Notes under the pieces: generated by a model
Told to the model about the DNA's origin: nothing
Databases searched by the model: none
The model's input: the letters and a program-made list of their open reading frames with translations, nothing else
Assembly: GCF_030028105.1 (NCBI RefSeq)
Contig: NC_092386.1
Span: forward strand, 42,462,347-42,526,346
DNA: 64,000 bases
Origin: Mobula birostris
Taxonomy: Eukaryota
Reading direction: 5' to 3'
In this document: piece after piece, positions 1 through 60,365 of the stretch
How the letters are laid out: each line of letters begins with the position of its first letter
Numbering within the stretch: the first letter of the stretch is position 1
Translations under genes and position numbers: made by a program

Positions 1-283
1 TACTTACCCTGATGTCTGGAAACAGCCAGACATAAGCTTACCCCTCAGAGCTTCCCACCCTTGAAACAGGCATTCCTTATAATGCTTATCTAGCAAGTGC
101 TAGGTTTCTTACAGCAGTTAATCAAACAATGGTACAAGCTGTTCTTAAGCAAGGACTGAAGTTACATGGGTCGCATACCAAGAATAATATTACCCGCTCA
201 GCTTATCTTGTGAGAAACACTTGTGCTTTTATGCTTTTTGTCAAAGTCTTAGCCACTATGACCCTTACAAAATAGCCAGGGTC

Positions 284-406
284 ACAAGAGGCCTGCGAGA
301 TGCTAACTTCTTGACATTACATTACAAGAGGCCTGCGAGATGCTAACTTCTTAACATTACATTACAAGAGGCCTGCGAGATGCTAACTTCTTAACATTAC
401 ATTACA
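284..406. repeat. Tandem repeat, 3 x 40 bp (acaagaggcctgcgagatgctaacttctt[g/a]acattacatt)
   Basis: Units start at 284, 324 and 364, with one mismatch among copies. Confidence 0.95.
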
Positions 407-519
407 CCCTGAACTGAAGCAATTGAACTATTAATTGAAATCCATTTCTCTCACATCAATCTTTCTCCTAACAAGGCATATTTCCATCTGGCTGAGGTAA
501 AATCCCAAGAGCATTAACT

Positions 520-776
520 CCCTGGGCCTCCTGTCCCATGATCCTCTCATATCCCCTTTGTCAATCACCTGTCCAGCTCTTGGCTCCATTCCTCCCCCTC
601 CTGTCTTCTCCTATCATTTTGGATCTCCCCCTCCCCCTCCCACTTTCAAATCTCTTACTAACTCTTCCTTCAGTTAGTCCTGATGAAGGGTCTCGGCCTG
701 AAACGTCGACTGTACCTCTTCCTAGAGATGCTGCCTGGCCTGCTGCGTTCACCAGCAACTTTGATGTGTGTTGCAA
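520..776 (+). mobile_element. Penelope-like element terminal (pseudo-LTR) fragment containing a minimal hammerhead motif
   Basis: Closely matches the reverse complement of 32699-32940, which adjoins Penelope GIY-YIG remnants. Confidence 0.75.
676..711 (+). ncRNA. Minimal type I hammerhead ribozyme motif (Penelope-associated, predicted dimer-dependent)
   Basis: AGTC-CTGATGA-A-GGGT(CTCG)GCCT-GAAA-CGTC-GACT: intact core, stem I AGUC/GACU, short stem II, palindromic ACGU in place of stem III. Confidence 0.65.
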
Positions 777-1249
777 GGGTATTAACTTTATGGTTCTACT
801 ATTAATCTGATATTCTTTCAGCAGATCCCTTTTCTTTCTCCTATCCAGATCATTGGCTTCAGTGAGGATGACACTGGAGTGAGATCTCCAGTGAGATTTT
901 CCTCTGCCATACCGTTTCTGACCAGACCTAAAGAGACTTCTTTAACTCTGGGAGGCAACATAGCCTTTAGGTCACATGCCCGCAGATCCACAGAACAGTA
1001 CCCAGTTTCTTAGCTAGTCACTTGAACATTCCCTTCCATTCCCAATATTTGAAGGACACTTGTACACAATTGTGTGTTCAGTTTATTCATGCGCTCTTGG
1101 ACAGGTCCCAGCTCTAAGGCACCTACAACCTTATCTTCTATAAAGGAACAGTCGACATTTCAGGAACCCCTGCATCAGAACTCAAATCCATGTTGTGCGA
1201 TTCTAAATCCAGAACAAACTATGAAACTCCCGATACTCTAGCCTCGATC

Positions 1250-2150
1250 TCTGCAGCAGAGCGGCGATAATCTCCCAACTGTTGCCGACACCAGGAACGT
1301 TTCTGGAATTACTGGACCGAGCCTCGGGGCTGCGGTCACTCACTGTCAAGTAGCCACTGGCGGCTCTTTACCGAAATGCTTCGGCCGGAGCCTCTCGTTT
1401 CGCTTTATCGTTGAGTTGCAGCTGACACATTTCGCTTATTTATTCGCCAAGGATTTGCTCCTTGCCCTGGGCTTACCTGCCACCCGACTTCTCCCTGACT
1501 CCATTTACTCTGCCTCTGCCGCCAGCTTTCTGTTTACCGTTGTCGCCTAGCAACGTGGCTCGAGCTCCGCGCGGCCGCCCGCTCCGCGGTGAGAGCGGTG
1601 CGCGGACCGGAAGCGGCGATTCGTGCTCAGCGCGTGCTGCCGAGGGACACTCGCGCGCATGCGCGCGGGCCCGCCTTGTTGGCGCTGACTGCGAGCTGGG
1701 GCGGTCGGGGTGGTGAACCGTAACGTTGTAAGTTGGCCTGCGAGTTGTGGGTGCCTCGGTTACAGTTAGTAGGAGAGACTGCGATAGCACGCTTTCTTAT
1801 CTTTGAGCAAAGCCAGCTGCAACGAACGTGTAGATTATTTGTTGTTTTCGGGAAGAGAAGCTGCATCTCCAGGAAATCCCTCATCGCCGCAGTTCCCAGT
1901 GTGGTTCCGGAGTGCACAGCCCGGGCTTTCAGCGGACGTTTGCATCAATCATAAGTGCATCTCAGGGATGTATGTGGTGAAATATACGTGCTTTGATCAT
2001 AAATTAACTTTGAACTTTGAAATCGCTCTTTGGCACCTGGGCACAGTGGTTGCAGTTCCCAGTGTAGTTCAGTTCTGCATAACTCGGGTTTTCGGCGGAT
2101 TATAGCATCAGCCTTAAATTTGTATCTTCGACTTTCAAAATGTGCTTTGA
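1250..2150. promoter_or_regulatory. CpG island; probable bidirectional promoter of QNG1 and a divergent minus-strand gene
   Basis: High CpG density; NRF1-type palindrome cgcgcgcatgcgcgcg 1652-1667; ETS/GABP CCGGAAG 1607-1613; RFX X-box GTCGCCTAGCAAC 1542-1554; plus-strand donor GTAAGT at 1728; minus-strand donor CAG|GTAAGC at 1477/1476. Confidence 0.8.
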
Positions 2151-2711
2151 TGACATATTTACAAAAATAAAATAATGTTTAGCTATATACTATGTTTAGT
2201 AACCTGAAATAAAATCAAAATAAATGCTGAAACCGCTCAGCACGAGAGCCTAAGGAAAGAGAGTTTTGGATCAAGGCCTTCTAACAGTTATTATTTTGAT
2301 TCTTTTAGCAATACTGCTGCATTCTTCTGGATATTTTAATTGTGGTTGATGAATCTTAAGTGAAGCCTGAGAGGGAATTGTCTTAGGGCAATCCTGAGTT
2401 GATCTGTACTAGTTTGAAATGAGTATTGCCTAAAATAATCTTTAAATAACCACACGCTGAATTATTCTCGTTTGTTTGCAGAAATGCAAGTCTCAGATGA
2501 ACTATTCCCAAAACAGAATTTGCAGTTCTTATTTTCGATCATCCAATTAATATATAACCGTTTCTAGATGGCGACGTCTAGGCAGTTATATAATAAAATG
2601 TTTACTAAATATGCTGAAATATCTAAATGGCTGTCTCCCAAAGCTACTGTTCCGATTTTTGTATAAATTGGATGTTCACTAAAGTGAGTGGTACAGTATG
2701 CGAGAAATATA

Positions 2712-2905
2712 ACACCCAAAATGCTGGAGGAACTCCGCAGGCAGCATCTATGGAAAAGAGTAAACTGTCGAGGTTTCGGGCCTGATGAAGGGTCTTGGCC
2801 CGAAAGGTCACCTGTACTTCTTTCCATAGATGCTGACTAGCCTGCTGAATTCCATCAGCATTTTGAGTGTGTTGCTTGGGTTGACGGCATCTATAGATTT
2901 TCTCT
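2712..2905. mobile_element. Palindromic (fold-back) Penelope-derived mini-element with a hammerhead core
   Basis: Arms aaaatgctggaggaact..gcatctatggaaa and tttccatagatgc..gaattccatcagcatttt are inverted; CTGATGA at 2782. Confidence 0.7.
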
Positions 2906-3725: not shown

Positions 3726-6700
3726 GTTAGTTCCATGTCAGATTAATTCTTTTATCTTTTTTGTGGCAGATTAAGAGACTGTTTCAGAGTCCACCATTTC
3801 TTCTAAGAGATCCAGTCATAACATTTATGACACTACTGCTGATGTAGATCTTAAAGTGCAGATGGGGAAATTAAATATTAACACAATTGATTTTTAAATT
3901 TCCTGTCATTTATTGTCAAAATAATTAAAGAATGAGAGAATTTCCATTATACAATGCTTTCACAATCTTGGTGTCTAAAATCACATTATAGTAATTGAAA
4001 TATTTTGTATCTTTAACTTAGAAGCTACTGCAGCTATCTTTACAGGTATGTTTCAGTGATATTTAAGGAATAAATTCTACCGGAATAACATCCAGTAATA
4101 CTTGTAGAGCCAATATTTTTTCAGTCTAGTAACAAAGCATGCATGTGAAATTAATTTTCTTTTGTGTGGAAAATGTAAGTAAGGGGATAGAAAATGAGAG
4201 AATATCATTAAGCTGGATATAGATTTTATATTGTGAGCTGTATGTTCCATTCTAAATCAATGGGTGGACTAGAAACTCCGGCTAATTTACAGTCTCAATC
4301 ACTCTAATTTTGCCGGTGGTTGGTCTGACATTAAGAGTTGTTATAAGTAAAGTTCATCCTGGTAGATTCTCAACATTGATGACTGGATAACCATGAAAGG
4401 CTATACAGTGAATAAAAACCAAACTCTGCAGATGTTGGGATCTGAAATAAAAATAGAAAATGCTGGAAACATTTAACAGGCCTAGCAGCATCTGTGGGAA
4501 GAGAAACAAAATTAACTTTTCAGGTCAAAGCCCCTTCATCAAAACAGTCCTAAAATTTATTTTGACCTGGAATATCGACTCTTCTCTTTCCATAGACACT
4601 GCCTAACCTTCAAAGTGTTTCAGCATTTTCTCTGTTACATGCTTATAATTAGTGTGCACTTTGAATTATGCAGCAGATTTAACTGATAATTTTTGTTGGT
4701 GTCTTTTTATTCTATATCAAGCAATTCCGATCACCAGTGCATCATATTTTGCTAACATAACCCTTCAGCAACTGAAGTATGTGTTGCGTTCAGATACTGA
4801 TATACCAATGCCAATGATTGAAGAACGTCTCAGAGTGCTTAAGGAAGCTGGAAACATTTTGCTGGAGAAGTTTGATGGTTCCTTCCTTAACTGCATTAAG
4901 AAGAGTGAGAATAATGCCCAGAAGCTGCTACAGCTTGTGGTGGAGAACTTTCCTTCATACAGAGATGAGGCCATGTTTCAGGTGAGTCTTTTGTGGCTGA
5001 TCCATCTTTTGTCAATAACTTCACTTTAGCCAAGATATTGAAGAATGCTATCGCAAAGACATAAACGGAGTTAAAATTATAGCTGTTTAAGAACATGGAC
5101 CCTATATCATAATGGGGAGCAATAAAATCTTTGGGAATTTGTGCAGCAACCGTTTTGCATCATAACATTCCCAGTGTCAGAAATGTGTTGCTTGTTATGA
5201 CTATTTGGAATTTGGTTTGGCAACAACATCTCCACAATCTCCATCAGCATAGGTGCACCACAAGGCTGTGTGCTTAACCCCCTGTTCAACACTCTTTACG
5301 CTTATGACAACTCATGCCATATTTAAGTTTGTTGATGACACTACTGTCACAGGCCAAATCAAAGGTGGTAATGAATCAGCAGATTAGATTAGATTATGAG
5401 GACACTCAATCCTTGTTTATTGTCATTTAGAAATGCATGCATTAAAAAATGATACAGTGTTCCTCCAGAATGATATCACAAGAAACACAGGACAAACCAA
5501 GACTAAAACTGACAAAACCACATAATTATAACATACAGTTACAACAGTGCAAAGCAGTACTGTAATTTGATAAAGAGCAGACCATGGGCACGGTAAAAAA
5601 AATACAGGAGGGAGATTGAAAATCAGACTGAGTGGTGCCATAACAACAACCTCTTACTCAATGTCAGCAAGAACAGGGAACTCGTTATTGACTTCAGGAG
5701 GGGAAACTGGAGGTCCATGAGCCAGTCCTCATCAGGGGATCGGAGGTGGAGAGGGTCAGCAACTTCATTGGTGTTATCATTTCAGAGTTTCTGTCTTGGG
5801 CCCTGCGCATAAGTAAAATTACAAAGAAAGCATGGTGGTACATCTTAGTTCCTTAGGAGTTTGTGAAGCAGCGGCATATGACATCTAAAAACTTTGACAA
5901 ACTTCTAGAGATGGATGGTGGAGAGTATATTGACTGGCTGCATCACAGACTGGTATGGAAATGTAAATGCCCTTGAAAGGAAAATCCTACAAAAAGTCCC
6001 TCCCGCCATTGAGCACATCTACAAGGAGCATTCTCACAGGAAAGCAACATGCATCGTGCATCATCAAGGACCCCACCACCAAGGCCATGCTCTTGTTGCT
6101 ACAATCAGGAACAAGGTACAGGAGCCTTAGGATTCTCACCATCAGGTTCAGGAACATTTATTACCCTTCAAACATCAGGCTCTTGAACTAAAAGGGATAA
6201 CTTCACTCAACTTCACTTGCCCAATACTGAGCTGTTCCTACAACCTATGGACTAAGTTTCAAGGACTTCATCTTATGCTCTCGGTACTTATTGCTTATTT
6301 ATTATTGTTACTTCTTTTTCTAAGACCGATTAGGGTCAAAGAGCACTGGCATCGAGGCTCATGGTCATTGAGGCAGGTAGAATAAATAGATACATGGGTG
6401 TAAGGCATTTTTCTGAGAGAGCGATGGTGGGGAGAAAGAGTAAGGTGATGGTCCAAAGCCCAGAGGGGCATTGGCCAAAGCTAGAATGGAATTTCTGTGA
6501 TGATTGTGGGCCAATGGGTGGTGATGAAGTTCAGGTTAGGTACAGTGCTTGTAAAAAGTATTCACCCCCGCCTTGGAAGTTTTCAGGTTTTATAGTTTTA
6601 CATTTTTTGACACTGAACATCAGAAAAAGACTCTTTCATGTCAAAGTGAAAACAGTTCTCTACAAAGTGATCAAAATTAATTACAAATATAAAACATAAA

Positions 6701-9700
6701 ATTATTGATTGCAGAAGTATTCACCCCTTCAAGTCAGTATTTAGTAGATGCATCTTTGGCAGCAACTTGAGTCTGTGTAGATAGGTCTCTATCACGTTTG
6801 TACATCTGGACACCAGTTTTTCCCCCATTCTTCTTTACAAAACTGCTCAAGCTTTGTCAGATTGCTTGGGGATCATGAGTGAACAACCCTTTTCAAGTTC
6901 AGCCACAAATTCTCAATTGGATTGAGGTCTGGACTCTGACTTGGCCACTCTAGGACATTAACTTTGTTGTTTTTAAGCCATTCCTCTGTAGCTTTGGCTT
7001 TATGCTTGGGGTCATTGTCTTGTTAGAAAACAAATCTTCTCCCAAGATGCAGTTTCTTTGCAGACTGCAGCAGGTTTTCCTCCAGGATTTCCCTGTATTT
7101 TGCTGCATTCATTTTACCCTTTTGTTTCACAAGTCTTACAGGGCCTACTGCAATGAAGCATCCCCACAGCATGATGCAGCTACCACCATGCTTCACGATA
7201 GGGATGGTGCGTTTTTGATGATGTACATAGTGTTTAGTCTGATGGCAAAGGCCTTAATTTTGATTTCTTCAGACAATAGAACCTTCTAGCTGACTTCAGA
7301 GTCTCCTACATGCCTTCTGACAAACTCCAGCCGAGATTTCATGTGAGTGTTTTCAATAGTGGCTTCCTCTATACCATTCTCCCATAAAGCTGCAGCTAGT
7401 GAAGCACCCAGGCAACAGTTGTATGCGCGGTTTCTCCTATCTCAACCACTGAAGCTTGTAACTCCTCCAGGGTTGTCATAGGTCTCTTGGTAGCCTCCCT
7501 CACTCATCCCTTTCTTGCATGGTCACTCTGTTTTTGAGGACTGCCTGTTCTAGGCAGGTTTACAGCTGTGCCATATTCTTTACATTTCTTGATGATGGAC
7601 TTAACTGTACTCTATGGGATATTCAGTGACTTGGACATTTTCTTGTATCCACCTTCTGACTTGGAGTTGCTTGGAGTGCTCTTTTGTCTTCATGATGTAA
7701 TTTTTGCCAGGGTACTGACTAACCAGCAGTTGGACCATCCAGATATAGGTGTATTTTTACCACAGCCAGTTGAAACACCTTGACTGCACAGAGGTGTCCA
7801 AAAACAGATCTCCATTTAACTAATTAATGGCAAGATTCTTAACAGTATGAATTAACAGGGGTCTAAGTACATAGATCCCTCAAAGTTACTGTGCTAGTTG
7901 ATGCAGTGGTTAAGAAAGCATATGGTGTTTTGGCCTTCATTAATCAGGGGATTGAGTTTAAGAGCCATGAGGTAATGTTGCAGCTCTATAAAACTGGTTA
8001 GACCACACTTGGAGTATTGTGTTCAGTTCTGGTCGCTTGTATTAGGAAGAGTGTGGAAGCTTTAGAGAGGGTGGAGAGGAGATTTATGAGGAAGCTGCCT
8101 GGATTAGAGAACCAATCTTATGCGGAAAGTTGAGCAAACTCTTTGAAGTGAAGGAGGATAAGAGGTGACTTGACAGCGGTTTATAGGTTATCAGAGGCGT
8201 AGATAGAGTGTCAATGGCCTATACCAGAGGACATTCTTTTAAGTTGAGATGTCAGAGGTAGTTTTTTTATACAGAGAGTTCTAAGTACCTGAAATGCACT
8301 GCCGGGGCAGTGGTTAAGGCTGATACGTTAGGAACATACTGCGTAATAGACTTTTAGATAAGCACATAGATAAAAGAAAAAAAAAATGGAAGGTTATGGA
8401 ATACTTTAGAGGGAGGGGTTAGATTGATCATGGAGTAGTTTTATGTATAGTAGGTCAACACAAGATTGTGGGCTGAAGGAGTCAAAGTGTGCTGTACAAT
8501 TTGTAGCTAATGGAATGTTGCACACACAACTTTGAAGTGTAAGAGTGAAATGTGACCAGAAGCACTTGATGGAATTTCTGACCAAGCATTAAACTGATTT
8601 TAAAAAATTGTAGCTTCTATTTTGTGATGCATTGATCCATAATGACTCCTTTGTGCCGAAAAATTGCCATCACATGATCTGGTATTGAGTTTTGTGTAGT
8701 AGTAAAATGAAATGGAAACATACTGCAGATTTGTTAGAAATTTTGAAGGACAAGTTTTCAATTTTTACTTATAATGATGTCAGCATATCACATCAGTAGG
8801 ATTTTTTTCCTGAAATTTTTATTTTTTGTTACCAGGACCAAGTACAAGCAATTTATAATTTTTTTTTTTCAGAGCTCCATTGGGATAAAGCCATTAGTTC
8901 AGTTTTGTTTGTGCTGAAATGTAATGAAATCTTGAAATAGCATTCAACATTGCAGACCATTTCAGATACTGGTCGTGTTTCATTTTAAGATTTTTTTTCT
9001 TGCATGAAGTAATCAGGATTAACTGTATAATAATCTGGATTTCACAATCTAAACTTTTGCTCTTAAGCTTGATGTAATTCCATCATGTTGACACTTCATT
9101 GTAGGGTATGTCTGCTGCTACTTCTAACATATTCTGTGGTCCTCGTTGGATTGGGTTAGTTGGCTAGTTTATAACAAACATAGATTGCGTGACATAGTGA
9201 GCACTGAGAACGTGCAAGATCAGGCTTTCACTTATTGTCCAATATATGGTGGACTACCTCCCATCCCTCAAGTAACGAGGAGGCTAAAGTATTTTATTTA
9301 GAGATATAGCGCGGAACAAGCTCTTCTGATCCATTGAGTCGCGCTGCCTAGCAGCTCATGGACTTTGCCTGAGCCTAGTCACAGGGCAACATCTTTGGAC
9401 TGTAGGAGGAAGCTGGAGTACCCAGAGGAAACCCACATGCACACAAAAAGATCATACAAATTTTCTTACAGAGTATGCCGGAATTGTGTTCGAGCTCCGA
9501 CACCTCAAGCTATAATAGCATTGCACTACCCTCTCTGCTGCCATGGAATAGAATGCAGAAGCAACTGAAAGGCTTGTTCAGATGCAGATGTACTGTAGGT
9601 TCCAGCACCAGGAGGAAATGTGTTTTGTTTATATAGAATGATACAGCACAGAAAGCTTTTGCTGGCTCTTTGATTGAGAATCAATCAGTCTTTTCTTTGT

Positions 9701-13679: not shown

Positions 13680-15240
13680 ACTGTGGAGGAACTCAGCAGG
13701 TCAAGTAGCACCTATGGAGGTGCAGAGATGGTGAACATTTTGGGCTAAGATCCTCCATCGCGCCTGAAAATGTAGAGGAAAGATAGCCATGGGAGGGAGG
13801 GATGGTAGGTGATATATGAAATCAGGTGAGGTGGAGGATAATGGGCAGATGAAGCCAGGTAAGGGAGAGGGATGGGAACATTTGGACAGGGTGGGTGGGG
13901 GGGGTGTGGTCTGCTGGGCAGATGGAGCCGGATGAGAGAAGGAGGAAGATGGAGGCTGGAGGGTGATGGGATAGGAGCAATGATGGGCAGATGGAACCAG
14001 GTGGGGACAGCTAGGAAATCCAGGTGGCTAGATGTGTAGATGATGAGCAGATAGAACCAGGTGGGCAGGTTAAGAGATCTAGGTAATGGGTGGGGGTGGG
14101 GGAGGAAGAAAAACTTGTTTAAGTGGGAAAGCAAAACAGGTGTGAGTTACCTGAAATTGGAAAATTCATTGTATTGTAATCTACTGTGTGGAATGTACAG
14201 TGTTGTTTTTCTAGTTTGTGTTTGACCTCCCCATTGAAGAAAGTGGTAGACAGACAGATTGGTGTGGGAATGGGAAGGGGAGTTGGAAATGATACAGCTG
14301 GAAGCTCAACGTGACTGTTGCAGGCAGTGCACAGAATCTTAGCAAAATCTTTGTTTGGTTTTGTCAAAGTAAAGGAAGTTATGCCACGAACACTGGATGT
14401 TATAGACAAAGGGCAGAAAAATGTATGTGAATCTTTGCCTCAACTGAGTGTTTAGGTCCCTGAACAGTGGTGGGGTTGGAGGGGTGGGGGGGAAGAAAAG
14501 ATGCAGGGACAAATGAGAGGCATCAGAAATGGACCAAATGAATTTCAGGGCAGGGTGGAAGTTGGAAGCAAAGTTGATGAAATTGACAAGTTCAGCCTGG
14601 GTGCATGAAGCAGCACCAATGTAGCACAGGAAGAGCGGGGGAGCAGTTCTAGAAAAAGTTTTAATGTAGCCAACAAAAAGGCAGGGACACATGGCTACCT
14701 CTAGGATTTGGAGAAGGTGGGAGGAGCGGAAGGAGAAATTGTTGAAGGTGAGGACCAGGTGAAGGAGGGTGGTGGTGGAGGGAAACTGGTTGGGTCTGTT
14801 ACTGAGAAAGAAGCAGAGAGCGGAGCGCTGTAAGAACTTCTGATGGGGATAGAAGTGTATGTGGCATTGGACATTCATGGTAAAAATGAGGTGTTCAGGG
14901 CTGGAGAATTGAGTGTTCGGATCGAGAGCAAGTGAAATGTCATGGATGTAGATGTGAAGGGACTGAACCAAGGGGGATTGAATGGAGTTGAACTATGCGG
15001 ACACAATTTCAGTGGGGTAGGAGCAAGCAGAGGAAGTGGGCCTACCTGAACAGTCGGTTTTGTGGATCTTGGGTAGGAAGTAGAAATGATCAGTGCAAGG
15101 TAGGGTATTATGAAGTTGGTGGCAGTGGATGGGACATCTCCAGAGTTGATGAAGTTAGTGATGCTGGGCAAGATAGTGGCCTGGTGGTGCAGAGGTCCTT
15201 TGTAAAGGGGTCCTTTACAAGGGGTCAGTAAGAGGAGGGG
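13680..15240 (-). mobile_element. Penelope-like retroelement, degenerate (RT and GIY-YIG remnants plus terminal repeat)
   Basis: LVLTFNNFSF, CLFVGY and FINFASNFHPALKF motifs in ORF 14339-14971. Confidence 0.8.
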
Positions 15241-26880: not shown

Positions 26881-28560
26881 CTCACCAATGGAAACAACTT
26901 TCCTACTTCTATCTTATCTATCCCTTTCAAAATTTTGTATGTTTCTATAAGAGCCCCTCTCATTCGTCTGAATTCCAGAGAGTATAGTACTTCATCCCTG
27001 GAATCAAGCCAGTATATCCTTCCTCAAGTATGGAGACCAGAACTGTACACAGTACTGGAGGTGTGGCCTCACCAGTACCCTGTATAGTTGCAGCATGACC
27101 TCCCTGCTCTTGAATTCAATCCCTCTAGCAATGAAGGCCAACATTCCATTTGCCTTCTTAATAACCTGTTGTACCTGCAAGCCAACTTTTTGTGATTCAT
27201 GAACAAGCACTCCCAAGTCCCTCTGCACAACAGCATGCTGCAATCTTTCACCATTTAAATTATAATCTTCTCTTCCATTCCTTCCAAAGTGGATGATCTT
27301 GCATTTACCAACGTTGTATTCCATCTGTCAGAGCTTGGCCCACTCACTTAACATATCTATATCCCTCTGCAGACTCTCCACATCCTCTGTACAATTTGCT
27401 TTTCCACTCATTTTAGTGTCATCAGCAAATTTTGCTATGCACTCAGTCTCCTCTTCCAAATCATCAATGTAAGTTGTGAACAGCTGTGGGCCCAGCACCG
27501 ACCTCTGCGGCACCCCACTCACCACTGACTGCCAATTGTAGAAACATCCATTTACACCAACACTCACAACACGCTGGAGGAACTCAGCAGGTCGGGCAAC
27601 ATCTGTGGAAATGATCAGTCAACGTTTCGGGCCGGAACATTGATCATTTCCATGGATGCTGAGTTCCTCCAGCATGTTGTGAGTGTTGCTTTGACCCCAG
27701 CATCTGCAGAGTATTTTGTGTTTACCCATTTATACCAACTTTCTGCCTTCTATTGGTTAACTATCCATGCCAACACAGTTCCTCTGACTCCATACATCTG
27801 TATTTTATTTATATGTCTCCTGTGCACCTTATCGAATGCCTTCTGGGAATTCAAGTATACGACATCCACCTGTTCCCCTCTATCCACTGCACTCATTATG
27901 TCCTCAAAGAACTCCAGTAAGTTTGTCAAACAGGACCTGCCCTTTCTGAATCACTGCTGTGTCTGTCTAACGGAACCACTCCTTTCTAAATGTTTCGCTA
28001 TTTCTTCCTTAATAACAACTTCAAGCATTTTCCCAACTACAGATGTTAAACTAACAGGCCTATAGTTGCCTGCCTTTTGCCTACATCCTTTTTTAAAAAG
28101 TGGCTTGACATTTACTGTCTTCCAATCCGCCGGGATCTGCCCAGAGTCTAGAGAGTTTTGATAAATGATTACCAATGCATCTACTATAACCTCCGCCAAT
28201 TTCTTCAGCACCCTGGGATGCACCCCATCAGGACCAGTGGATTTATCTACCTTCAGACCCTCTAGTTTGCTCATCACTATCTCTTTAGTGACAGTGAATT
28301 TATCGAGGCCCTCACCTCCCATTTCATCCATAACATCCTTCTTTGGCATATTAGATGTGTCCTCCACTGTGAAGACCGACACAAAACAGTCGTTCAATGC
28401 CTCAGCCATTTCCTTATCACCCAATATCAATCTCCCCTTCTCGTCTTCCAAGGGACCTACGTTGACTTTAGCCACCCTCTTGTGCTTTATATATTTATAA
28501 AAAAACTTTTGCTATCTGGTTTTATATTTTGTGCTAATTTGCTGAACTATTCCAATACCT
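26880..28560 (-). mobile_element. Second CR1 LINE (RT region)
   Basis: GPDGVHPRVLK, NYRPVSLTSV, FADDTK and RPHLQYCVQFW fragments. Confidence 0.88.
27562..27725. mobile_element. Fold-back Penelope-derived mini-element inserted in CR1
   Basis: Inverted arms; flanked by ccatttacaccaac 27548-27561 and ccatttataccaac 27726-27739. Confidence 0.7.
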
Positions 28561-29269: not shown

Positions 29270-30745
29270 AAAAATGTTGGGATATACAGCAGTTCAGGCA
29301 GCATCTGTGGAGGAGGAAAGAATTAATGTTTCAGGGTAAAAATCTTTTATAGGAAACTTAACAAAAGATCATGGATATGTAATGGACTAAGATGTAGCCA
29401 TGTGCATCCACATGAGACCCAATTATGCTAGCCTTTTTGTTGGCTATGTGAAACAGTTCATATTCCAAGCCTTCATTGGTAAAGCTCCCTTACTCTCTCT
29501 GTCCTACTTACTGCATGTTAAGTGTATTGTATGTAGGTTGCTTCATGAACATATGCTAAGCTCGGCAACTACATCATCTTTACCTCCAACTTCCACACTG
29601 CCTTTCAATTCACTTGGTTCATTTCTAATACCTCTCTCCCCTTCCTCAATCTCTGTCTCCAACTTGGGGAGGGGCCCAAACTCTATGAATTTCCTTTATA
29701 AACCTCCCGACTCCCAAAGCTATTTTTTCCCATTGTCTCCTGTAAAAATGCCATTTCTTTTTCTCAGTTCCATTGTCTCTGCAACATCTGTTCCCAAAAT
29801 GAGGCTTTCCTTTTCAGGACAGCAGCAATGTCTCCTTTAAAACTACAGGGTTTCCCTTCCTGCAACATTGATGCTGTCCTCACCCACATATCCATTTTCT
29901 GGACATCTGTCATCACCCCATCTTCTCATCCCCTTAACAGGCATAGAGTTCTTCTTGTCCTCACTTATCAGCCCATGAGCCTAGGCATCCAACACATCAT
30001 CCTCTGCAACTTCTACCATCTTCAATGGGATCCTACCCATGCCCCCGCCCCAACTCTCCAGTTACTTCAGGGATCACTACATCCGTGATTCTATTATCCA
30101 TTTGTTTCTCCTCAATAAAATCCCACCTGGAACTCAAATCCTAAAAGCAGAAGTGCTACATGTGCCCATCCACTTTCTCCCTCACTTCCATTCCAGGCCC
30201 TAGAACAGTCCTCCCAGGGAACCCAACATAAATTGGAGGACTGCTTTGTAGATTACCTTCACTCCATCCACAAGAAGCAGAGCTTCCCATTGGCCAACTA
30301 TTTTAATTCCTATCCCACTCCTGTTCTGACATATTGGTCCATGATCTCCCTATTGATGAGGCCACTCTCAGGTTGGAGGAGCAACACCTCATTTGTCTAG
30401 GTAGTCTCTAACCTGATGGCATGAATATTTCTCTAATATCCAGTAATTTTCACCTCCCCATTCCATACTCTGGCTCCCTTTTTACCACTTCTCTTCTCCT
30501 GACTTCTCACCCTCCTCCTCTTTCTCCCATGGTCCACTCTCCTCTTCTAACAGGTTCTTTCTTCAGCCCTTTATCTTTTCCACTCCCAGCTTCTCTCTTC
30601 ATCCTCTTCCCCCACCCACCCGATTTCACGTATCACATTCTTGCATGTACTTCTCCCCATCCCCTTTCCTTTCCAGTTGACTATTTATTTCTATTGATGC
30701 TGCCTGGTCAGCTTAATTCCTTCAGCATTTTGTATCTTATTCTAA
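29270..30745 (+). mobile_element. Penelope-like retroelement, degenerate
   Basis: PNYASLFVGY and YKP.DS motifs; GIY-YIG-like C-terminal remnant; terminal repeat remnants at both ends in inverted orientation. Confidence 0.75.
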
Positions 30746-31650: not shown

Positions 31651-32698
31651 CTTGGCTCCAGACCCCATTCATCAACCCTAATTTTGAGATGAATTCCAAA
31701 ATGAGATGGGAAAATTACCCTAGGCCCAACCATCTTCAGCTGCTTCATTATTTACCACTGGATCAAGTGAGAATGTTTACACGAGTTTAGATTAATACAG
31801 CATAGAGCTCAGGCACAATTCATCCTTGCAATCAGAGGTGCCCAAGTAGGCTGGTCTTATTTGTTTGCCTTGTTTGCCTTGGGTCCATAAACTTCACCCT
31901 GAACCTACTCACTTACACATACTCGTCTCTACTGCTTCCTCTGATAACTTCATACATACACATCACACTTTCCGTATAAAAGCTTTTCCCTATTACCTAA
32001 GGGATAAGGTGTCCCTCCACCTTATCTATTGCCCTTCATGATTGTATGAACCTCTCATCATCCTTCAGCCTTTTCTACTCCATTAAAACCAGTCCCACCC
32101 TATTCGGTCCATCGTAACTGAAGCCCCCCCAGACTTGGTGGCATTCTTTTGAATCTTCTCTACTCTAGCTTTATCACAAGTAGAGTTTTTCAACCAGAAC
32201 TGCATAGTATTCCAAGTATCATCTCACCCACCAATGAATTACATTAATTATGGTAATACTACATACACAAAATGCATTGCACTTGCTTACTCAGGTTGCA
32301 CTGACAAACATCTCAATTTTGTGATCTCTACCACTACAATGGAGCCATTATATAAGACACTCACTTTCAGATTCCTTGGAAATAAGACTGCCATTCCTTT
32401 GGTTTAAATCGACCTTCAGCAGGATTACAGTACATCAAAATGACTCAGCTGCACTTTTTTTTTATTAACAGTTAGATATAAAGTTTTAGCTATAACACCC
32501 CCACCATCTTTATTCTCACCACTGAAGGCGAGTTTATTAAACAGCTGAGTTCTGAATTATCTTCTTCTAAACAAGAGGTAAAATTGACCAGTGCTTTACA
32601 ATTTGATGTGAAAATTGGAAAAGTTAATTCTACCAGGAATTGTTATGAGAATTAGAGCTAAGACAGCTCAGTTGGTGGAACAGAAATAAACAGGGTAA

Positions 32699-33695
32699 GC
32701 AACACACATCAAAGTTGCTGGTGAACACAGCAGGCCAGGTAGTATCTCTAGGAAGAGGTACAGTCAATGCTTTGGGCAGAGACCCTTCATCAGGACTAAC
32801 TGAAAGAAGAGCTAGTAAGAGATTTGGAAGTGGGAGGGGAGATCCAAAATGATAGAAGACAAGAGGGGGAGGGATGGAGCCAAGCACTGGACAGTTGATT
32901 AGCAAAAGGGATATGAGAGGATCATGGGACAGGAGGCCCAGGCAGAAAGAAAAGGGGAAGGGGGGGGGGAAACCCAGAGGATGGGCAAGGGGTATAGTGA
33001 GAGGGACAGAGGGAGAAAAAGGAGGAAAAAAGTGTATATACCATATGGGGTACAAGGGGGAGGTGGGGCATTAGCAGAAGTTTGACAAGTCAATGTTCAT
33101 GCCGTCAGGTTAGAGGCTACCCAGACAGAATATAAGGTGTTGTTCCTCCAATCTGAGTGTGGTTTCATCTTTACAGTAGAGGAGGCCGTGGATAGACATA
33201 TCAGAATGGGAATGGGACGTGGAATTAAAATGTGTGGCCACTGGGAGATCCTGCTTTCTCTGGTAGACAGTGTGTAGGTGTTCAGCAAAACCATCTCCCA
33301 GTCTGCGTCAGGTCTCACCAATATAGACGACCACATCAGGAGCACCAGATGCAGTATATCACCCCAGCCAACTCACAGGTGAAGTGTCACCTCACCTGGA
33401 AGGACTGTCTGATGCCCTGAATGGTGGTAAGGGAAGATGGATAAGGGCATGTGTAGCACTTCTTCCGCTTACAAGGATAAATGCTAGAGGGAGATCGGTG
33501 GACGAATGGACAAGGGAGTCGTGTAGGGAGCAATCATTGTGGAAAGCTGGGGGCGGGGAAGATGTGCTTAGTGGTGGGATCCTGTTGGTGGCAGCAGAAG
33601 TTATGGAGAATATGTTGGACATGGAGGCTGGTGGGGTGGTAGGTGAAGAGAAGAGGATCCCTATTCCTAGTGGGGTAGCGGGAGTACAGGGTAAG
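32699..33695 (-). mobile_element. Penelope-like element 3' part (GIY-YIG endonuclease remnant plus terminal repeat with decayed hammerhead)
   Basis: Decayed endonuclease region; terminal part matches 520-776. Confidence 0.8.
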
Positions 33696-35728: not shown

Positions 35729-43976
<8,248 letters not shown>

Positions 43977-48044: not shown

Positions 48045-48150
48045 AAGTAGTCCTGCTGAAGGTTCTTGGCCTGAAACATTGACTGCTCTTTTCCATAGAT
48101 GCTACCTGGCCTTCTGAGTTCCTCCAGCATTTTGTGTGTGTTGCTTGAAG
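48045..48150 (+). mobile_element. Penelope terminal-repeat fragment with a mutated hammerhead core
   Basis: agtcctgctgaaggttcttggcctgaaacattgact. Confidence 0.6.
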
Positions 48151-58269: not shown

Positions 58270-59330
58270 ACAAACATGAGAAATTCTGCAGATACTGGAA
58301 ATCCAAGGCAACACACACACACAAAGTGCTGGAGCATCTCAGCAGGTCAGGGAGCATCCACGGAAATGAACAAACAGTTGATATTTCAGGCTGAGACCAC
58401 CTTCAGGACTGGAAAGATGCCAGAATAGAAAGGTGGGGGGAGGGTAAGGAGGATGGGTAGGAAAGGTAAAGGCTGGTGAGGAAGGAATCTGATAGGAGAG
58501 GACAGTAGACCACAGGAGAAAGAGAAGGAGGAGCAGCGGGGGGAGGTGCTAGGCAGGTGAGAAGAGGTAAAAGACCAGAGTGGGGAATAGAAGAGGAGGG
58601 GAGGAGGAGGGATTTTGTTTTAAACTGGAAGGAGAAATTGATATTAATGCCATGAGGTTTGAGGCCACCCAAATGAAATTTAAGGTGTTGCTCTTCCGCC
58701 CTGAGGGTGGTCTCATCATGGCTCAAGAGGAGGCCGTGCTCTGACACGTTGGAATGGGAATTGGAATTAAAATGTTTGGCCACCAGGAAATTCCACTGTT
58801 AGCAGACAGAGCAGAGGTGCTTGATGAAACAGTCCCCCAATTTACGACGGGTCTCACCAAACTAGAGGAGGCCACATCAGGAGCACTGAACAATATAGAG
58901 GACCCCAGTAGATTTGCACGTGAAGTGTTGCCTCACCTGGAAAGACTGTTTGGAGCCCTGAATGGAGGTGAGAGATGAGGTATGGACAGGTGTAACACCT
59001 TGTCCACTTGTAGGGTAAATGCCAGGGGGGACATTAATGAGGAGGGATGAATGGATGAGGGGATCATGGAGGGGGTGATTCCTTGGGAAGTGGAGAGAGG
59101 GGTGGAGATAAATCTGTGTTTGGTGGTAGGATCCTTTTGGAGATGGCGGAGGTTGCGGCGAATGATGTGTTGGTTTTGTATGCTCATGGGCTGGTAGGTA
59201 ACGACAGAAACTATCACTGTTAAGGTGGTGGGTGAGTGTGGATGTTCAGGAAATGGAGGAGATGCAGGTGACGACAGCATCATTGACGGAGGAAAGGAAA
59301 CCTCGTTCTTTGAAGAAGGAAGATACTAAT
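58270..59330 (-). mobile_element. Penelope-like element 3' part
   Basis: AKHFNS..EEQHLKFHLG GIY-YIG C-terminus plus terminal repeat. Confidence 0.8.
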
Positions 59331-60245
59331 AGATAATAGATTTATTAGGGAATGAGACAGAGCAGGTGACAGAAGTTTGTGTAGGGGAAAACTTTGCATC
59401 TACTGATCATAATGACATTAAGTTCTTTATAACTATGGAGAAGGTTAGGTCTGCTCCTGTGGTTGAGATTCTAAGTTGAAGACAGGTCAATATTGATGGT
59501 ATCAGCAAGGATCTGGCAATTGTGTATTGGGATATGTTGTTTTCAGGCAAAGGTATGCTTGGTAAGTGGAAGGTCTTCAAAAGTGAAATTTTGAGAGTGC
59601 AGAGTTTGTATGTTCCTGTCAGAATAAAATCAAGGATAAAAGATATAGGGAATCTTGGCTTTCAAGAGATATTGAGGACCTGGTTAAAAAAGGAGAAGTT
59701 ACATTGCAGGAATAGACAGACTAGTGGTAAGTTATTGGAAGGTATCCTAAAGGACAGGTTATCTGAGTATTTGGATAGACTGATTAGGGATAGTCAACAT
59801 GGCTTTGTGCATGGTAGATCACGTCTAACCAATCTTATAGAATACTTTGAGGAAGTTATTAGGAAGGTTGATGAAGGCAAGGCAATGGATGTTGTCAAGA
59901 TGGACTTTAGCAGTGCCTTTGACAAGGTCCTGCGTGGGAGGTTGGTCAAGAAGCTTTGATCACCTGTCATTTGGAATGAGGTAGAACATTGGATTAGACA
60001 CATTGGTTTCATGGGAAAAGCCAGAGAGTGGTCATAGATGGTTGCCTCTCTGACTGGAGGTCTATGACAAGTGTGTGCTGCAGGGATCAGAGCTGGTTCT
60101 TTTGTTGTTTTTTCGTCTATATCAATGATCTGGACAATAATGCAGTGAACTGGATCAGCAAATTTGCAGATGAGACCAAGATTGGGGGAGGGTGTTATAT
60201 TGAAGTTATAAAAGATGTTGGTGAGCCCTAATCTGGAGTATTGTG

Positions 60246-60365
60246 CTGGTGGAACGCAGCAGGCCAGGCAGCATCTATAGGAAGAAGCACAGTTGACGTT
60301 TCGAGCCGAGACCCGAAGAGTGTGTGTGTTGATAGAATTTCCAGCATCTGCAGATTTTCTTGTGT
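60246..60365. mobile_element. Penelope-derived mini-element with a 12-bp TSD
   Basis: tggagtattgtg at 60234-60245 and tggagcattgtg at 60366-60377. Confidence 0.6.

What the first reader, a model, noticed from the sequence alone, without database searches (positions are those of the whole stretch)
676..711. Minimal hammerhead ribozyme with an intact core in a Penelope terminal repeat
Seen in sequence: stem I AGUC/GACU, CUGAUGA plus an extra A, stem II GGGU-CUCG-GCCU, GAAA, then CGUC with predicted cleavage after C707. Stem III is reduced to the palindrome ACGU, which can only pair between two copies. Established: Penelope-like retroelements carry minimal hammerheads that cleave as dimers. Decayed copies occur at 2782, ~1150-1180 (-), ~4520-4545 (-), 32761-32797 (-), 48049-48084 and ~58375-58412 (-). 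Inference: this is a high-copy ribozyme family, and this copy would lie antisense within the first intron of the divergent gene.
Basis: partly seen in the sequence, partly recalled or inferred. Interest (0 to 1): 0.72.

Follow-up and report, generated by a model that had tools for sequence, protein, structure and literature searches.

The report
Relic Penelope hammerhead in kinesin intron
This is one of tens of thousands of copies of an already described tiny self-cutting RNA motif that sits at the end of a Penelope-type jumping gene; this copy is a lone fragment lying backwards in a gene's first intron and is most likely inert.

Summary
The motif at 676-711 is exactly as described and beyond chance (1 of 300 shuffles gave any such hit). 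It lies in a 256-bp 5'-truncated end (519-774, 14-bp target duplication) of a Penelope-like retroelement; a flank pattern matches 32,831 places in this genome. Long copies show repeat(hammerhead)-RT/GIY-YIG ORF-repeat(hammerhead), sense to the ORF, 3.5-3.7 kb apart. Distant relatives (33-46% protein identity in the 7 aligned) keep the core, the bulged A and a palindromic stem III while the stems covary, so it is the published minimal PLE hammerhead. Spliced contigs put this copy antisense in intron 1 of a kinesin gene; no intact partner was found among nine other copies in 84 kb. Genomic copies decay at the core (G12 changed in 12 of 39 older copies). One extra: 33 of 34 hammerheads in loci of long-ORF copies have U, none C, at 11.1, departing from the conserved G10.1-C11.1 pair. 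Cleavage was not tested. The scan had already reported this family on other pieces of this genome. Ordinary: new member of a known kind.

The parts
676..711 (+). Minimal type I hammerhead motif, all 11 core letters intact; predicted cut after C707
703..706 (+). 4-nt palindrome that would form stem III between two copies
   Evidence: sequence; kept or covarying in distant relatives
519..774 (+). 5'-truncated Penelope-like element end (3' UTR, hammerhead, tail), 95% identical to the repeat of long copy L108
506..519 (+). Left copy of target-site duplication (12 of 14 letters match the right copy)
774..787 (+). Right copy of target-site duplication
1477..1620 (-). First (non-coding) exon of the divergent kinesin gene; intron 1 runs from about 1476 to about 1,370 bases before the window start
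1150..1182 (-). Old decayed copy, sense to the kinesin pre-mRNA; A9 changed, stem II shortened
2781..2875 (+). Older-subfamily copy inside a palindromic insertion; palindrome and stem I broken
4477..4545 (-). Old decayed copy
27580..27646 (-).
32697..33684 (-). Longer truncated copy reaching into the ORF end; hammerhead at 32762-32797 with G12 and A15.1 changed
48049..48084 (+). Decayed copy; A6 changed, palindrome broken
58376..58410 (-). Decayed copy; A9 changed, palindrome broken
60244..60314 (-).

Best explanation
The motif is the minimal hammerhead of a very abundant Penelope-like retroelement, and this copy is a lone, 5'-truncated insertion lying antisense in intron 1 of a kinesin gene, where it is most likely inert. 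In the element, a partial tandem puts one hammerhead upstream and one about 290 nt downstream of the ORF on the same strand (shown). In a transcript the two would pair through their palindromes and swapped stem I arms into a double hammerhead and cut after C17, probably slowly and probably needing the element's protein (inferred from published work on other PLEs and from folding energies). Reverse transcription from two preferred points about 94 and 130 nt past the core start, with early stops, would scatter solo ends like this one (two 3' end clusters shown; mechanism inferred). After insertion the copies decay neutrally (consistent with the counts). The intact core here reflects youth, not function.
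For: Element anatomy in L106, L108, L109; RVT_1 and GIY-YIG matches in that order; 32,831 matches, reversed control 0; target duplication; window copy differs from the family majority at 2 of 175 positions; 47 of 100 flank-chosen copies are as intact as this one; rare alleles hit the core about as often as the flank (7 of 900 against 40 of 3289, p 0.37); G12 changed in 12 of 39 C11.1 copies; same architecture with covarying stems in distant PLEs; host transcript is on the opposite strand; nine other copies in 84 kb, none intact; monomer predicted to fold with its core paired to the cut-site strand.
Against: No cleavage assay. Both Pfam matches are below the curated cut-offs. Non-CpG core sites are somewhat better kept than composition-matched flanks (0.78% against 1.67%, 3.2% of site draws as low); the deficit lies in alleles shared by three or more copies, which fits selection on source elements, but it is not significant by site (0 of 9 against 15 of 91, p 0.35). 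The descriptor found a hammerhead after the ORF in only 5 of 52 eligible distant loci. Contigs cannot show strand, so a + strand transcript over 676-711 is not excluded.
Confidence: 0.88

Rival explanations
1. In the youngest lineage the hammerhead is weakened or vestigial: it carries G10.1-U11.1, and the element multiplies without cutting its RNA.
For: 33 of 34 hammerheads in loci chosen for ORF length have U11.1 and none C; U11.1 copies are younger (1.8% against 3.3% divergence) and form 56 of 100; Cervera and De la Pena call G10.1-C11.1 highly conserved (PMC4209133); HHR mutants still insert in vitro in the anole element (PMC11167929); the double hammerhead is predicted about 7-10 kcal/mol less stable than two folded monomers.
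Against: G-U keeps the pair; one distant relative (L232) also has G-U there; no allele shared by three or more copies falls on the nine non-CpG core sites; nearest-neighbour energies ignore Mg2+ and tertiary contacts; the 20 long-ORF loci were picked from hits to one query and may be one subfamily.
Confidence: 0.25
2. This copy has been co-opted to regulate the kinesin or the neighbouring queuosine-salvage gene, by cutting an antisense or upstream RNA from the shared promoter.
For: Intact core; about 750 bp from a bidirectional promoter region.
Against: Antisense to the only spliced transcript seen over it; upstream of the + strand gene's first transcribed pieces; no intact partner among nine nearby copies; 47 of 100 copies are equally intact.
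Confidence: 0.04
3. The short copies form a separate non-autonomous retrozyme or SINE-like family that moves as a ribozyme-cut circular RNA.
For: Many short and palindromic copies; animal retrozymes derive from pLTRs (bioRxiv 10.64898/2026.07.22.740005).
Against: This copy is colinear with the autonomous element's 3' UTR; 5' ends are scattered and 3' ends fall at the element's two tail points; no tandem of the unit here; of 48 copies starting within 60 nt before the core or later, none starts exactly at the cut (biased sample).
Confidence: 0.06
4. The match is chance.
For: No Rfam hit; folding z-score -0.09.
Against: 1 of 300 shuffles; same architecture with different paired stems in distant PLEs.
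Confidence: 0.01

Closest known systems
Minimal hammerheads (min-HHR) in pLTRs of metazoan Penelope-like elements (Cervera and De la Pena 2014, PMC4209133; parts 1-2 of 4 read)
   Same: Type I layout, short stem I, one letter between 9 and 10.1, palindromic 15.2-16.2 with no loop 3, place in the pLTR, mostly solo copies from truncated elements, also pairs on opposite strands.
   Different: Stem II is 4 bp (7-8 bp in the Schistosoma families); pair 10.1-11.1 is G-U in the young lineage rather than G-C; the count is higher than the 4,000-9,000 quoted there for coelacanth and Xenopus (counted differently); the parts read do not mention cartilaginous fish.
Canonical EN+ PLEs of the Neptune/Nematis type (Craig et al. 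2021, PMC8557442; passages read)
   Same: Single ORF with RT then GIY-YIG, Cys-rich linker fitting CX2-5CxxC, partial tandems forming pLTRs, inverted 5'-truncated copies, tail.
   Different: Neptune versus Nematis not resolved here; no tree with named references was built.
Anole Poseidon element PAc (Frangieh et al. 2024, PMC11167929; passages read)
   Same: Hammerhead at the pLTR-ORF junction region; copies end at two preferred points past the hammerhead.
   Different: In PAc the ORF starts at stem II; here the first in-frame Met lies about 170 nt past the motif start. PAc was assayed (protein-assisted cleavage, not needed for insertion); this element was not.
Non-LTR retrozymes (bioRxiv 10.64898/2026.07.22.740005; abstract, introduction, part of methods, three passages and discussion read)
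   Same: Type I hammerhead of pLTR origin; reported in the one chondrichthyan sampled.
   Different: Retrozymes are defined there as tandem units each with a hammerhead; this is a solo truncated element end.

Membership tests
PLE min-HHR | Core boxes C3-A9 and G12-A14, A15.1, U16.1, H17 | tested here: met
   invariant in 9 of 9 aligned
PLE min-HHR | Stems I and II form and covary | tested here: met
   89.9% of 99 cells paired, 9 of 11 pairs with change on both sides, slid controls 21-43%; partly by construction, since the descriptor demands stems
PLE min-HHR | Unpaired letter between 9 and 10.1 | tested here: met
   A687; 101 of 102 alignments; 11 of 13 distant hits though optional in the descriptor
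PLE min-HHR | Palindromic 15.2-16.2, no loop 3 | tested here: met
   704-705; one relative swaps both letters and keeps the palindrome (L185)
PLE min-HHR | G10.1-C11.1 pair (highly conserved consensus feature, not in the published descriptor) | tested here: not met
   G-U here and in 56 of 100 copies; G-C in 39 of 100; still a pair
PLE min-HHR | Located in pLTR, sense to the ORF | tested here: met
PLE min-HHR | Cleaves as dimer, not as monomer | not testable with these tools
   energies only
EN+ Penelope-like element | Single ORF with RT and C-terminal GIY-YIG | tested here: met
   ORFs of 1042 and 1047 codons; RVT_1 E 0.0028 and 1.2e-5, GIY-YIG E 0.00097 and 0.0074, all below Pfam cut-off; homolog P0017 passes the GIY-YIG cut-off; motifs aligned
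EN+ Penelope-like element | Partial tandem pLTRs and inverted truncated copies | tested here: met
   direct repeats of 756-1033 bp at 95-96% in L106, L108, L109; inverted copies
Neptune/Nematis clades | Cys-rich linker between RT and EN | tested here: met
   three Cys invariant in 30 of 30 aligned proteins
Neptune/Nematis clades | Placement in an RT tree with named references | not tested
   no named reference sequences were in hand
Non-LTR retrozyme | Two or more tandem units each with a complete hammerhead | tested here: not met
   solo copy with target duplication
Rfam hammerhead families | Score against the covariance models | tested here: not met
   no hammerhead family among 9 matches at E up to 10

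The most novel reading that the evidence does not exclude
The most recently active lineage of this element replaced the conserved G10.1-C11.1 pair by G-U and still made the majority of tens of thousands of copies, while its monomer is predicted to lock its own core in a hairpin. If that change cripples cleavage, the genome holds a natural experiment showing that a vertebrate Penelope element can thrive with a weakened or protein-gated ribozyme, a direct handle on the open question of what PLE hammerheads are for.
Probability: 0.2. Interest if true: 0.5.

Novelty: new member of a known kind. Interest (0 to 1): 0.17.

Why it matters
For this locus, little: it is one solo relic among tens of thousands. 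For the family, the role of PLE hammerheads is stated to be unclear (PMC8557442) and they were dispensable in vitro in one element (PMC11167929). A family with near-intact autonomous copies, two natural variants at 11.1 and a very large fossil record is good material for testing that.

Tried and rejected
Rfam scan: no hammerhead match, expected for a motif with no stem III. Folding z-scores of 36-136 nt pieces: -0.09 to -1.42, uninformative. A genome-wide count of core-intact against control-intact copies was not obtained; the comparison rests on 100 copies from the first 9 Mb of contig C1. One search counted 102 alignments because overlapping loci doubled two copies; searches use the 100 unique ones. 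Core against flank conservation: Fisher p 0.016 unmatched, 3.2% of draws when matched for base type, p 0.37 for rare alleles, p 0.35 by site for shared alleles: suggestive at best. Alternative register with A687-U699 as 10.1-11.1: predicted less stable (-1.1 against -2.3 kcal/mol). I first guessed the 52-nt second exon at window 8-59; the contig's loose end maps instead to L031 8599-8627. Cleavage fossils: of 48 copies starting at offset -60 or later, 13 start at -4 to 0 (front of the motif), 0 exactly at the cut, 5 within 4 nt of it; the sample is biased toward copies holding the motif, and a 6-nt palindrome (705-710) centred on the cut gives a second cause for fold-backs there (L108 2999-3165), so no conclusion. 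Expression: no RNA holder is on record; contigs give no strand or ends. Lunse et al. 2017 (PMC5785218) is not held; only its title was seen in a reference list. Searches for print on this family: 'Penelope, hammerhead, shark' and 'Penelope, Neptune, chondrichthyan, genome' listed no paper on it; Repbase and Dfam were not searchable, and unseen supplements of PMC4209133 and of the bioRxiv paper may list it.

Full report
Observation. A descriptor for a minimal type I hammerhead, with stems I and II of at least 4 bp, finds only this site in the window, with a 5-bp stem I, a bulged A and a 2-nt spacer; 1 of 300 shuffles gave any hit. Rfam has no match.

The carrier. Bases 519-774 are 95% identical to the terminal repeat of locus L108 and are framed by a 14-bp duplication with two mismatches. 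A pattern made of the two flanks of the motif matches 32,831 places in the 4.0-Gb genome, the reversed control none. A protein search with one RT piece gave 27,299 candidates, 150 scored; I fetched 20 of these with long open frames. Three of the 20 (L106, L108, L109) show a direct repeat of 756-1033 bp on each side of a 1005-1112-codon frame, each repeat holding the motif on the ORF's strand, 3.5-3.7 kb apart. Both motifs have an intact core in L106 and L109; the downstream one in L108 is broken. Two ORFs scanned match RVT_1 and then GIY-YIG, weakly and below Pfam's cut-offs. 689 relatives were found, the best a bamboo shark protein at 71%, so the host is probably a cartilaginous fish (inference). 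Three Cys in the RT-EN linker are invariant in 30 of 30 aligned proteins, fitting the CX2-5CxxC linker of Neptune/Nematis elements (PMC8557442, passages). The upstream repeat in L108 is a truncated copy holding the ORF end, the partial tandem typical of PLEs.

Is it a selected RNA structure? In 80 metagenome loci of related elements, a relaxed descriptor hit 5 of 52 eligible loci on the sense strand within 800 nt after the ORF and 0 of 52 on the other strand; over whole loci it gave 13 hits, 11 with the bulged A and 10 with the 2-nt spacer, neither of which was required. A core-only look found the motif, decayed, 92-109 nt after the ORF in 4 of 10 further close relatives. I aligned 2 copies from this genome with 7 of the 13 hits (left out: three on the opposite strand, two of other build, one with a longer palindrome); three of the seven are one family. 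The core is invariant; 89.9% of 99 cells pair, 9 of 11 pairs change on both sides, and slid structures give 21-43%. Pairing is partly by construction, but position, strand, bulge and palindrome are not. This matches the min-HHR of Cervera and De la Pena (PMC4209133, parts 1-2 of 4).

Copies in this genome. Among 100 unique copies chosen by flanks only, 76 keep the core, 64 also the palindrome, 47 also both stems. The window copy differs from the majority at 2 of 175 positions, one being C7 to U. CpG sites inside the core decay: G8 in 6 of 100, G12 in 12 of the 39 copies where it is a CpG. At non-CpG sites the core shows 7 changes in 900 cells against a matched flank mean of 1.67% (3.2% of draws as low). 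Rare alleles are about equally frequent (p 0.37); alleles shared by three or more copies are absent from the core, but 0 of 9 sites against 15 of 91 is not significant. The simplest reading is selection on source elements and none on inserted copies; it is suggested, not shown.

A lineage-level departure. Position 11.1 is U in 56, C in 39 of 100. U copies are younger (1.8% against 3.3%), and 33 of 34 motifs in the long-ORF loci have U, none C, so U is inherited, not only CpG decay. The published consensus calls G10.1-C11.1 highly conserved. The effect on cleavage is unknown; one distant relative also has G-U.

Mechanism. With no loop, stem III can form only between two copies. The monomer is predicted to pair its first core box with the cut-site strand (-9.2 kcal/mol here, -11.0 with C7), and the double hammerhead (-11.5) is less stable than two such monomers (-18.4, -22.0) by nearest-neighbour rules that ignore Mg2+ and tertiary contacts. 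This agrees with reports of no monomer activity and low dimer activity for a Schistosoma min-HHR (review PMC6765202, passages) and of protein-assisted cleavage that is not needed for insertion in the anole element (PMC11167929, passages). 3' ends of 150 copies cluster at 91-97 (51 copies) and 128-135 nt (44 copies) past C3; the window copy ends at 94, like the two internal start points described for that element.

This locus. The + strand gene matches Pfam Q_salvage. The divergent gene has a kinesin exon about 7 kb before the window (Pfam Kinesin; best solved relative KIF7; the name KIF27 is recalled from synteny). A contig of run X4 joins window 1477-1601 to that exon, and one of run X5 joins 1477 to L031 8599-8627; both runs are one study and are only guessed to be RNA, but the joins skip an intron. 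The copy is thus antisense in intron 1, and the pre-mRNA holds the reverse complement, which has no hammerhead. Of nine other copies found in the window and 20 kb upstream, none is intact. A role here is unlikely.

Novelty. Known kind. The scan has 42 notes matching this family on other pieces of the genome (8 shown), none near this place; they agree and are not independent support. Two paper searches found nothing on this family in sharks or rays; repeat databases were not searchable. Interest 0.17.

Noticed in passing
window 36484-36573 (-): mir-7 precursor, 85 bits, above the Rfam cut-off. That mir-7-1 sits in an hnRNPK intron is recalled, not checked.
   Followed up: no
window 284-406: Tandem repeat, 40-bp unit, 3.1 copies, 98% alike, in the kinesin intron 1.
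   Followed up: no
window 2700-2885; L004, L014, L020, L108 2999-3165: Short palindromic insertions made of two head-to-head element ends; in L108 the fold-back is centred on the 6-nt palindrome that spans the predicted cut.
   Followed up: partly
window 14517-15186, 29389-30459, 58632-59323: Older ORF-bearing fragments of related elements at 64-72% identity to L108.
   Followed up: no
G000 C1 4372768/4373926 and 4927049/4927410 (listing): Inverted pairs of one insertion share the same changes, in the first pair a G12 change; either a core-dead template was copied or the arms were homogenised later.
   Followed up: no
window 4-221: Several short contigs of run X1 cover this stretch, which has two donor-like sites on the - strand near 7 and 41; possibly alternative 5' UTR exons.
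   Followed up: no
L053, L107, L121, window 27556-27660: A third subfamily with a different loop 2 and downstream flank but the same core and stems.
   Followed up: partly
L223 708-753: Distant relative with a longer, 6-nt palindromic stem III and a longer stem II loop.
   Followed up: no
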